Of a stretch of DNA of 38,128 nucleotides, positions 19,997 through 20,018 are shown in pieces. Under the pieces are notes generated by a model, which was not told the DNA's origin, made no database searches, and was given only the letters and a program-made list of their open reading frames with translations. How positions within the stretch are numbered: position 1 is the first letter of the stretch; the number at the start of each line of letters is the position of its first letter. This DNA comes from Parcubacteria group bacterium (GTDB lineage Bacteria; Patescibacteriota; Minisyncoccia; Moranbacterales; UBA11712), in the NCBI GenBank assembly GCA_041661585.1, contig JBAZUC010000001.1, positions 1-38,128 on the forward strand. The letters are read 5' to 3'. The translations under genes were made by a program, and so were the position numbers.

Positions 19997-20018
19997 TGTT
20001 ACGTAGCATGTTACGTAA
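19997..20018. promoter_or_regulatory. Operator-like repeat tgTTACGTA-N5-TTACGTAaca upstream of the NYN gene
   Basis: TTACGTA at 19999-20005 and 20011-20017 (12-nt period). The second copy is part of the 12-nt palindrome tgttacgtaaca. The same architecture occurs at 25618-25636. Confidence 0.5.

What the first reader, a model, noticed from the sequence alone, without database searches (positions are those of the whole stretch)
19997..20018. Identical operator architecture (TTACGTA-N5-TTACGTA) at both ends of the island links the NYN gene to the AbrB-like/REase operon
Two places carry two copies of the 7-mer TTACGTA with exactly the same 12-nt phasing. One is tgTTACGTAgcatgTTACGTAaca at 19997-20020, 60-80 nt upstream of the NYN start, overlapping a possible minus-strand promoter whose -10 would be TAAAAT. 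The other is aaTTACGTAattaaTTACGTAttt at 25616-25639, 18-36 nt upstream of the AbrB-like gene. Each TACGTA core is itself palindromic. On a manual scan I saw no other TTACGTA in the window. Two such pairs with the same spacing are very unlikely by chance. They imply one DNA-binding protein co-regulating both loci, probably the adjacent AbrB/MazE-fold protein or possibly the LexA domain. That would make the island one regulatory unit.
Basis: seen in the sequence. Interest (0 to 1): 0.6.

Follow-up and report, generated by a model that had tools for sequence, protein, structure and literature searches.

The report
Operator boxes of a tiny AbrB-fold regulator
The two paired TACGTA motifs are real and most likely binding sites for the island's 59-residue AbrB-fold protein, one of a widespread but undescribed family of self-repressing mini-regulators that head restriction and defence genes in candidate-phyla bacteria; its control of the NYN gene is less certain.

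Summary
TTACGTA-N5-TTACGTA (core TACGTA-N6-TACGTA) lies at 19999-20017 and 25618-25636. These are the only two exact copies in the 830-kb genome.

- Site B is very probably the self-operator of the 59-aa AbrB/MazE-fold protein. In about 110 homologous loci the gene is preceded by 2-3 short palindromic boxes at a fixed 12-nt period. TACGTA is the commonest box, and the box changes with the paralog.
- A matrix built only from other genomes ranks site B, site A and a third site (before a dcd gene on another contig) as the top three sites in this genome.
- The LexA alternative is not supported. LexA-type genes carry different tandem boxes, and LexA-MTase/REase loci without the AbrB gene have no TACGTA pair.
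- "One regulatory unit" overreaches. Other island modules have their own promoters and operators.

The main caveat concerns site A. Site-A-type palindromes also occur in genomes with no detectable TACGTA-type family member, up to 12 per genome and often beside terminators. Site A may therefore belong to a separate element.

This scan has met the same family on other DNA before. No paper in the library describes it. There is no experimental evidence.

The parts
25618..25636 (.). Site B: two TACGTA boxes 12 nt apart (AATTACGTAATT flavour), a perfect 18-bp palindrome. Candidate self-operator of the AbrB-like gene, 17 nt before its ATG.
   Evidence: A 36-nt stretch from the ATG through the boxes is identical in homologous loci L003 and L094, and identity ends at the distal box edge. 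Matrix score 33.1, second best in the genome.
19999..20017 (.). Site A: two TACGTA boxes 12 nt apart (GTTACGTARC flavour, CATG centre), 62-80 nt before the NYN ATG. It overlaps the -35/spacer of a possible minus-strand promoter.
   Evidence: Matrix score 22.7, third in the genome; the next locus outside these three scores 15.8. It matches the upstream boxes of L107, whose protein is 78% identical, over 29 nt at 93%.
25421..25600 (-). 59-aa AbrB/MazE/SpoVT-fold protein, the proposed binder. It is the only family member in this genome.
   Evidence: Pfam PF04014, 27.3 bits against a cut-off of 24.7. Single copy. More than 345 relatives at 65-88% identity. AF2 model with pLDDT 74 and strand-strand-strand-helix-strand-strand order. 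Foldseek top hits are MazE, AbrB-N and SpoVT.
24833..25414 (-). Bsp6I-family restriction endonuclease, same strand, 6-27 nt after the AbrB-like stop. Homologs suggest the true start is the ATG at 25393. Presumed to be co-transcribed and so controlled through site B.
   Evidence: Pfam PF09504. Homologs are 186 aa. ORF layout.
19347..19937 (-). NYN-domain (PIN-like nuclease) gene, the candidate trans-target of the regulator through site A.
   Evidence: Pfam PF01936, E 5e-26. A 73%-identical NYN fragment lies directly after an AbrB-like gene in L068. Orthologs elsewhere lack the boxes.
19989..19994 (-). Possible -10 (TAAAAT on the minus strand), 4 nt downstream of site A. With a 17-nt spacer the -35 position falls on the distal TACGTA box.
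   Evidence: Read from the sequence. It did not reach the 9-of-12 threshold of the consensus scan, so it is weak.
20170..20197 (-). Strong distal promoter TTGACA-16-TATAGT facing NYN. Site A would lie about 150 nt inside its transcript and could act as a roadblock.
   Evidence: 11 of 12 match with an extended -10. It is overlapped by TAGTGATA x2 at 20166-20181.

Best explanation
Both box pairs are operators for the island's 59-residue AbrB/MazE-fold protein. By inference, a swapped-hairpin dimer binds each palindromic TACGTA box, and two dimers sit on neighbouring boxes 12 bp apart. At site B the boxes lie between the promoter and the start codon of the regulator's own gene, so the protein represses itself and the co-transcribed Bsp6I-type endonuclease. 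This keeps REase output low and buffered, the job that helix-turn-helix C proteins do in classical R-M systems. At site A the same protein acts in trans on the NYN nuclease gene, by occluding a weak proximal promoter or by blocking transcripts from the strong distal promoter. A third site before a dcd gene on another contig would complete a three-target mini-regulon. Shown here: the sites, their uniqueness, the family-wide box architecture and the fold assignment. Inferred: binding itself, the sign of regulation and the NYN link.
For: 1. The pair is unique to these two places in 830 kb.
2. Homologs heading unrelated cargo (Fic, N6_N4 MTase+MutH, HAD+GmrSD) carry the same boxes directly upstream.
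3. A self-similarity shift of 12 nt is the top shift in about 18 of 30 and 47 of 80 upstream regions. Shuffled sequences and 98 other upstream regions show none at the same threshold.
4. 37 of 80 upstream regions hold at least one TACGTA, although the genome frequency is about 1 per 40 kb.
5. The box sequence changes with the paralog (TACGTA, TGCGTA, CCTAGG, TTCAGTA, CTCTAGAG, TTACAGCA) while period and position stay fixed.
6. In a 34-site matrix, information content lies in the two hexamers and not in the flanks. Scanned over this genome, the matrix puts the C36 site (33.2), site B (33.1) and site A (22.7) on top; the next locus outside these three scores 15.8.
7. Across 401 genomes of the class, 23 of 36 with a family member have the pair, against 20 of 365 without (odds ratio about 30; kin are not independent).
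8. L107, whose protein is 78% identical, has upstream boxes nearly identical to site A.
9. The genome has one family member.
10. Pfam and Foldseek agree on the AbrB/MazE fold.
11. The layout AbrB-like -> REase <- LexA-MTase recurs with other REase families in L100 and L144.
Against: Several genomes have many TACGTA pairs but no detected TACGTA-type family member. G699 has 12 pairs, is 99% complete and has no AbrB/MazE hit at all. G536 has 10 and none. G551 (9) and G597 (8) have paralogs with other boxes. G485 and G523 are similar. In G699 the sites are of site-A flavour, mostly abut intrinsic terminators and have no adjacent small gene. The RCATGY centre of site A is conserved across at least 7 families, although the family matrix gives spacers little weight. 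NYN orthologs elsewhere lack the boxes. The proximal promoter at site A is weak. Foldseek E-values are weak (0.14-3) for this 59-aa monomer model.
Confidence: 0.55

Rival explanations
1. Split origin. Site B is the AbrB-like self-operator, but site A belongs to a separate, class-wide family of 22-26-bp palindromes (TGT-TACGTA-RCATGY-TACGTA-ACA). These would be bound by another, unidentified factor or act as a structural or insulating element next to terminators. The shared TACGTA core would then be convergence or cross-recognition.
For: Site-A-type palindromes with the conserved RCATGY centre occur in at least 7 genomes of different families. G699 has 12 such sites, mostly flush against terminator hairpins, and no AbrB/MazE gene. 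In G485, G523 and G597 the detected paralogs use other boxes. L030 and L034 keep a site beside orthologous genes although G376 lacks the regulator.
Against: Near-identical proteins use the GTTACGTAAC flavour as their own upstream boxes (L107, L119, L154, L162, L042, L066). Site A scores far above genome background with a matrix built only from family self-sites. Variable low-GC islands that carry the regulator are the parts most often missing from metagenome bins, so apparent absences are soft. The site-A-type loci share no neighbouring gene.
Confidence: 0.25
2. The palindromes act at the RNA or single-strand level, as hairpins that terminate, attenuate or process transcripts. Site A would act in the NYN leader and site B after tspO. 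They would not be protein operators.
For: Site A folds into a 9-bp hairpin (-10 kcal/mol, z -4.6) and site B into a 7-bp hairpin (z -2.9). In other genomes some pairs are extended into long hairpins followed by T-runs and look like bidirectional terminators (L010, L037, L092).
Against: Hairpin potential follows automatically from two palindromic boxes. Neither window site is followed by a U-tract on either strand. Three-box arrays and non-palindromic phased boxes upstream of paralogs do not form single hairpins. Conservation falls on the hexamers rather than on stem complementarity in the spacer.
Confidence: 0.08
3. A LexA-type repressor, either the LexA-MTase fusion or the chromosomal LexA, binds the TACGTA pairs and ties both loci to the SOS response.
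For: The centre-to-centre spacing of 12 bp resembles that of E. coli-type LexA boxes (general knowledge). LexA-type genes lie within 2.5 kb of 7 of 80 AbrB-like loci.
Against: The closest LexA-MTase/REase loci (L006-L008) have no TACGTA pair in 8.6-10.5 kb. LexA-clade promoters, including the window's at 23197-23215, share TGTGGATAAC plus TTCGG-N6-TTCGG and no TACGTA. The chromosomal lexA and uvrBA/DUF763 promoters share TAGTGATA repeats. By my tally, 35 of the 37 TACGTA-bearing upstream regions have no LexA-type gene nearby.
Confidence: 0.03
4. Chance co-occurrence of two rare heptamer pairs.
For: None beyond the AT-rich composition of the island.
Against: Expected 0.08 pairs in the window and about 0.07 relaxed pairs at any one spacing in the genome. 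The motif recurs in homologous positions in dozens of genomes.
Confidence: 0.01

Closest known systems
AbrB N-terminal domain / Abh / SpoVT and MazE / VapB swapped-hairpin DNA-binding proteins (Pfam PF04014)
   Same: Same predicted fold and size of the DNA-binding module. Pfam hit above cut-off, and the best structural matches are MazE, AbrB-N and SpoVT. Self-repression through repeated or palindromic sites in the protein's own promoter is the rule for MazE/VapB-type antitoxins (general knowledge).
   Different: Only 59 residues, so it has neither the C-terminal multimerisation domain of AbrB/SpoVT nor the toxin-binding tail of MazE/VapB. No toxin partner: the downstream genes are interchangeable, about one third of them R-M parts. 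The operator has a strict 12-bp period of short palindromes whose sequence varies by paralog.
Controller (C) proteins of type II R-M systems (C.PvuII, C.AhdI, C.Esp1396I)
   Same: A small regulator gene immediately upstream of, and on the same strand as, the REase gene. The operator is a direct repeat of a palindrome just before the regulator's start codon. Site B ends 17 nt before the ATG, the modal 17-18 nt distance reported for C proteins (PMC2632904).
   Different: C proteins are Xre-type helix-turn-helix proteins (PMC2632904; PMC12707154), whereas this one has an AbrB fold. The activate-then-repress logic is unknown here. The family also heads MTases, type I/III systems, RadC, Fic and NUDIX genes. 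The 2025 review of R-M regulation lists no AbrB/MazE-type controller.
MraZ (tandem AbrB-like domains binding phased direct repeats before the dcw cluster)
   Same: An AbrB-like fold reading several short boxes at a fixed helical-repeat-like spacing near a promoter (from memory, not tested here).
   Different: MraZ boxes are non-palindromic direct repeats at a 10-11 bp period. MraZ is a two-domain ring-forming protein tied to one conserved operon. Here the boxes are palindromic at a 12-bp period, and the gene is a mobile single-domain unit.
LexA / SOS boxes
   Same: Paired half-sites about one helical turn apart in promoters of an island that encodes a LexA fusion.
   Different: The TACGTA pair is absent from every LexA-type promoter examined. 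Those carry TTCGG-N6-TTCGG or TAGTGATA repeats.

Membership tests
AbrB/MazE/SpoVT swapped-hairpin domain (PF04014) | Sequence match to the family profile above the curated cut-off | tested here: met
   27.3 bits against a cut-off of 24.7, E 3.6e-6, residues 16-58.
AbrB/MazE/SpoVT swapped-hairpin domain (PF04014) | Strand-strand-helix-strand-strand fold resembling solved AbrB-N or MazE | tested here: inconclusive
   AF2 monomer model with pLDDT 74 and elements E-E-E-H-E-E. Foldseek ranks MazE, AbrB-N, SpoVT, VapB and C68 first, but with E 0.14-3 and TM about 0.5. Sequence and profile searches of PDB find nothing.
AbrB/MazE/SpoVT swapped-hairpin domain (PF04014) | Obligate dimer formed by interleaved hairpins; DNA contact through conserved basic loop residues | not testable with these tools
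   Only monomer prediction was available. R12, K13, T15, G18 and S21 are invariant in 35 relatives, consistent with a conserved DNA-contact loop.
Type II R-M controller (C) protein | Small gene directly upstream of, and co-oriented with, the REase gene | tested here: met
   The AbrB-like stop is at 25421-25423. The REase starts at 25414 (TTG) or 25393 (ATG) on the same strand.
Type II R-M controller (C) protein | Xre-type helix-turn-helix fold | tested here: not met
   The Pfam and fold searches give AbrB/MazE and no HTH. It is therefore not a member of the C family; it may work like one.
Type II R-M controller (C) protein | Paired palindromic operators just upstream of the regulator's own start codon | tested here: met
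   Two palindromic boxes end 17 nt before the ATG. The same layout is seen family-wide.
Type II R-M controller (C) protein | Autogenous activation at low and repression at high concentration, delaying REase | not testable with these tools
   Needs expression assays.
Type II toxin-antitoxin antitoxin (MazE/VapB/PrlF type) | Adjacent cognate toxin gene and a C-terminal toxin-binding extension | tested here: not met
   The downstream gene here is a REase. Across 69 loci the cargo spans 50 Pfam families, mostly R-M parts, RadC and Fic. The protein is only 59 aa, with nothing beyond the DNA-binding domain.
LexA (SOS) operator | Present in the repressor's own promoter and before core SOS genes | tested here: not met
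   No TACGTA pair lies at the lexA (C36), uvrBA (C25) or LexA-MTase promoters, which carry other tandem boxes.

The most novel reading that the evidence does not exclude
Patescibacteria carry a portable control cassette that takes the place of helix-turn-helix C proteins. It consists of a promoter, 2-3 palindromic boxes at a 12-bp period and a gene of about 58 aa for an AbrB-fold autorepressor. Extra copies of its boxes elsewhere in the genome, here before an NYN nuclease gene and a dcd gene, would wire unlinked defence and nucleotide-metabolism genes into a small trans-regulon. Together with the LexA-fused methyltransferase, this would give an R-M system whose two enzymes answer to two different, non-classical regulators.
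Probability: 0.45. Interest if true: 0.65.

Novelty: new variant of a known kind. Interest (0 to 1): 0.5.

Why it matters
R-M systems must hold back their endonuclease, and the only dedicated controllers described are helix-turn-helix C proteins, MTase-fused HTH domains, antisense RNAs and promoter methylation (PMC12707154). A phylum-wide AbrB-fold mini-regulator in the C-protein position would be an independent solution to the same problem. It has a simple, predictable 12-bp box code that differs between paralogs. That code would allow regulons to be read from sequence in uncultured bacteria with very few transcription factors. In this window it also suggests cross-talk between an R-M system, an NYN nuclease module and dCTP/dUTP metabolism.

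Tried and rejected
1. TACGTA as the R-M recognition site (methylation-sensitive promoter). Rejected: the REase is Bsp6I-family (Bsp6I cuts GCNGC, from general knowledge), TACGTA is not avoided in the genome (21 observed, 14.6 expected), and no GCNGC lies in either box pair.

2. The two sites as duplicated ends (att-like repeats) of the island. Rejected: the spacers differ, and only the 24-29-nt box pair is shared with anything else.

3. Site A as the relic of a larger cassette promoter. Rejected: its flanks have no homology elsewhere.

4. A conserved NYN-plus-boxes unit. Rejected: about 20 NYN orthologs (53-75% identity) have no boxes and no AbrB-like neighbour, apart from the G681 fragment.

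5. A shared neighbouring gene at site-A-type loci that could encode another binder. None was found.

6. A divergent AbrB/MazE gene in the exception genomes. Neither the family profile nor PF04014 found one in G699, G536, G077, G389 or G376.

7. REase homologs in 400 genomes of the phylum. None was found, so the R-M system itself gave no comparative leverage there.

8. The 2017 paper on the Patescibacteria SOS network is not in the library, so the identity of the phylum's LexA box rests on my own comparison.

10. Rfam gave nothing above threshold on the island.

Full report
**1. The observation**

The heptamer TTACGTA occurs four times on the + strand of the window, at 19999, 20011, 25618 and 25630, and nowhere else. 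The count is 6 matches on both strands against 1.12 expected, and no shuffle reaches 6. The paired pattern matches exactly at 19999-20017 and 25618-25636, against 0.08 expected.

In the organism's whole assembly (830,213 bases, 90 contigs; the window is contig 1), the core TACGTA occurs 21 times. The pair TACGTA-N6-TACGTA occurs only at these two places, and no strict pair exists at any other spacing from 0 to 20. TACGTA is rare for compositional reasons and is not avoided: a Markov model expects 14.6.

Each site is also a near-palindrome. Site B is a perfect 18-mer palindrome.

**2. Setting**

The window spans the replication-origin region (dnaA, dnaN, rpmH, rnpA, yidC). A low-GC block (33-35% against about 45%) lies between a DciA-like gene and tspO. 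It holds these genes:
- NYN (19347-19937, minus strand)
- two unassigned genes and a Schlafen/AlbA_2 gene
- vsr
- a LexA-C5-methyltransferase fusion (23260-24822, plus strand)
- a Bsp6I-family REase (24833-25414, minus strand)
- the 59-aa PF04014 protein (25421-25600, minus strand)

**3. Which protein goes with the motif**

The REase itself is rare: 0 of 400 sampled genomes of the phylum have it. Its closest homologs (69% identity) pair with a LexA-MTase fusion. They have no AbrB-like gene and no TACGTA pair in 8.6-10.5 kb.

The 59-aa protein belongs to a large, highly conserved family of more than 345 proteins at 65-88% identity. Homologs that head quite different genes all have the same boxes right before their ATG. 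The downstream genes are Fic genes, an N6_N4 MTase plus a MutH-like gene, and a HAD hydrolase plus GmrSD. The box sequences are ATTACGTAATTAATTACGTA or ATTACGTAATTAATTACTTA. The motif therefore travels with the AbrB-like gene, not with the LexA fusion or the REase.

**4. A family-wide operator architecture**

I examined two independent samples. The first was 30 non-redundant upstream regions, mostly from a 401-genome sample of the class. The second was 80 loci from named genomes, mostly Moranbacteria and other Patescibacteria.
- The strongest self-similarity in the 80-90 nt upstream of the gene is at a shift of exactly 12 nt in about 18 of 30 and 47 of 80 cases.
- The mean best match at shift 12 is 12.0 of 18, against about 8 for every other shift, for shuffles and for 98 other upstream regions of the same loci.
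- 37 of 80 regions contain TACGTA and 13 contain the exact pair.
- The box sequence differs between paralogs: TACGTA, TACTTA/TAAGTA, TGCGTA, CCTAGG, TTCAGTA, CTCTAGAG, TTACAGCA, TTATATAA. The period, the copy number (2-3) and the position stay fixed.
- In many loci a -10-like hexamer lies just before the boxes. The start codon follows the last box at a median of about 13 nt.

This pattern is the usual signature of an autoregulated transcription factor family with diverging specificity.

A 34-site alignment of TACGTA-type self-sites from other genomes has its information in the two hexamers (1.0-1.6 bits per position) and little in spacers or flanks. Site B's identity with its nearest homologs stops exactly at the distal box edge.

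**5. The regulon in this genome**

The genome has one family member. A matrix built from the other genomes' sites, scanned over both strands of all 830 kb, gives three outstanding loci:
- a three-box site on contig 36 (TAAGTA-N6-TACGTA-N6-TAAGTA, ending 5 nt before the ATG of a dCTP-deaminase/dUTPase-family gene), score 33.2
- site B, score 33.1
- site A, score 22.7

The next locus outside these three scores 15.8. Near-identical proteins use both box flavours as their own sites. The AATTACGTAATT flavour (as in site B) is seen in L094, L098, L112 and L133. The GTTACGTAAC flavour (as in site A) is seen in L107, L119, L154 and L162. L107's protein is 78% identical to the window's, and its boxes match site A over 29 nt at 93%.

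**6. Fold and function of the protein**

Pfam places the protein in PF04014, above the cut-off. An AlphaFold model from a 35-sequence alignment (pLDDT 74) has the expected order of strands and helix. Its best PDB matches are MazE, AbrB-N, SpoVT, VapB and archaeal C68. The scores are weak (E 0.14-3, TM about 0.5), as expected for a monomer model of a domain-swapped 59-mer. Sequence and profile searches of PDB find nothing.

Downstream genes in 69 loci span 50 Pfam families. About a third are R-M parts: N6_N4, HsdM, D12, EcoRI-type and C5 methylases, ResIII, HsdR, DpnI and MmeI. The rest include RadC, Fic, MazG-like, DUF3800 and patatin. The protein is therefore not an antitoxin with a fixed toxin. 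It is a leader regulator of interchangeable, often defence-related, genes.

The exact layout of the window (AbrB-like -> REase <- LexA-MTase) recurs with other REase families in L100 and L144.

**7. Why LexA is not the binder**

LexA-type genes of the fusion's clade share TGTGGATAAC followed by a TTCGG-N6-TTCGG direct repeat over the -35/-10 region. This holds for the window (TGTGGATAAC at 23174-23183, repeats at 23197-23215), L006, L127 and L166, and for the part of the promoter that the L100 locus covers. None has TACGTA boxes.

The chromosomal lexA promoter (contig 36) and the divergent uvrBA/DUF763 region (contig 25) share TAGTGATA tandem boxes. The same 21-mer overlaps the strong minus-strand promoter at 20170-20197 in the window. 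The island thus shows three different tandem-box systems. The TACGTA one is the only system tied to the AbrB-like gene.

**8. How it probably works**

All of this is inferred. A dimer binds each palindromic box, and two dimers 12 bp apart bind cooperatively.
- At site B the complex sits between the promoter and the ATG. It represses the regulator and the co-transcribed REase. This gives a buffered, low REase level, while the MTase answers to its own LexA domain.
- At site A the boxes overlap the -35/spacer of a weak TAAAAT promoter. They also lie about 150 nt downstream of the strong SOS-box-type promoter, so binding could occlude the first or block transcripts from the second.

The C-protein literature describes the same logic: a direct repeat of a palindrome, and a 17-18 nt distance to the start codon (PMC2632904). 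The 2025 review lists only HTH-type controllers (PMC12707154). No paper in the library links AbrB-type proteins to R-M control.

**9. Caveats**

Across 401 genomes of the class, the pair is present in 23 of 36 genomes with a family member and in 20 of 365 without (odds ratio about 30). Relatives are not independent, and each self-site contributes to its own genome's count.

The exceptions are not trivial:
- G699: 12 sites, 99% complete, no AbrB/MazE hit even to PF04014 at E 0.1
- G536: 10 sites, no hit
- G551 (9 sites) and G597 (8 sites): paralogs with other boxes
- G485 and G523: similar

In G699 the sites are of the site-A flavour, including the exact site-A 18-mer. Most are flush against intrinsic terminators, and none has a small gene beside it. 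The RCATGY centre of site A is conserved across at least 7 families.

There are two possible explanations. The regulator may sit on variable islands missing from these bins. Or site-A-type palindromes are a separate element with another binder. I therefore give the unified explanation 0.55 and the split-origin rival 0.25.

A hairpin-only reading is weak, because neither site has a U-tract. NYN orthologs elsewhere lack the boxes, so the NYN link is local. One contig-end fragment in G681 does show a 73%-identical NYN directly after an AbrB-like gene.

**10. Verdict**

Earlier notes of this scan on other genomes reached the same reading of the family. My tests here were made independently and agree with them. 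Relative to the literature, this is a new variant of known autorepressor and C-protein logic. No experiment exists.

Noticed in passing
window 20162-20182 (minus strand), with G000 contig 25:9858 and contig 36:3279-3310: The tandem TAGTGATA-TAGTGATA overlaps the -10 of the strongest minus-strand promoter (TTGACA-16-TATAGT, 20197-20170). The identical 21-mer lies in the divergent uvrBA/DUF763 region, and a related triple lies in the chromosomal lexA promoter. A 24-nt match also sits just before an R-M methylase in L003 (3868-3891). This is a candidate SOS (LexA) box of this lineage and would put the NYN leader under damage control.
   Followed up: partly
window 23174-23215: The LexA-MTase promoter carries TGTGGATAAC (DnaA-box-like) followed by TTCGGTAT-N3-TTCGGTAT overlapping the -10. 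The same arrangement is conserved before other LexA fusions and standalone LexA paralogs (L006, L127, L166; partly L100). It is the likely operator of that LexA clade and resembles the GTTC-N7-GTTC direct-repeat type.
   Followed up: partly
window 19237-19346 (+): The promoter-hairpin-terminator unit convergent with NYN is conserved at 84-100% nucleotide identity downstream of NYN orthologs in about 15 other genomes (L175-L196). That is higher than the conservation of the NYN protein itself (53-75%). NYN plus this small RNA looks like one mobile two-part module.
   Followed up: partly
G000 contig 36:6196-6241: A three-box site (TAAGTA-N6-TACGTA-N6-TAAGTA) lies between thyA and a dCTP-deaminase/dUTPase-family gene and ends 5 nt before that gene's ATG. 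It is the top-scoring match to the family operator matrix in the genome. The chromosomal lexA lies 2.2 kb upstream on the same contig.
   Followed up: partly
G000 contig 18:1490-1521: Three boxes (TACGCA, TACGCA, TGCGTA) at the same 12-nt period lie just upstream of an HI0933-like flavoprotein gene. This is a degenerate candidate site. TGCGTA boxes are the self-site of other paralogs (L063, L064).
   Followed up: no
L068 (G681:C8) 1507-1870: An AbrB-like gene with TTACAGCA boxes is followed about 80 nt later by a 73%-identical NYN gene, cut off by the contig end. This is the only other locus found that joins the two gene families.
   Followed up: no
L100 and L144: The same three-gene layout as the window (AbrB-like, REase, convergent LexA-MTase fusion at 74-78% identity) occurs with REases that are not Bsp6I-like. 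The regulator plus LexA-MTase frame appears to accept different endonucleases.
   Followed up: no
L018, L091, L191: Another conserved palindrome, AACATTCTGCAGAATGTT (or ...CTCAAGAATGTT), recurs in intergenic regions of several genomes of the class, sometimes beside TACGTA pairs. Its function is unknown.
   Followed up: no
G699 (L218-L223), also L010, L037, L092: Site-A-type palindromes commonly sit immediately after or before intrinsic terminator hairpins. In some cases they are extended into long A-run/T-run-flanked hairpins that look like bidirectional terminators.
   Followed up: partly
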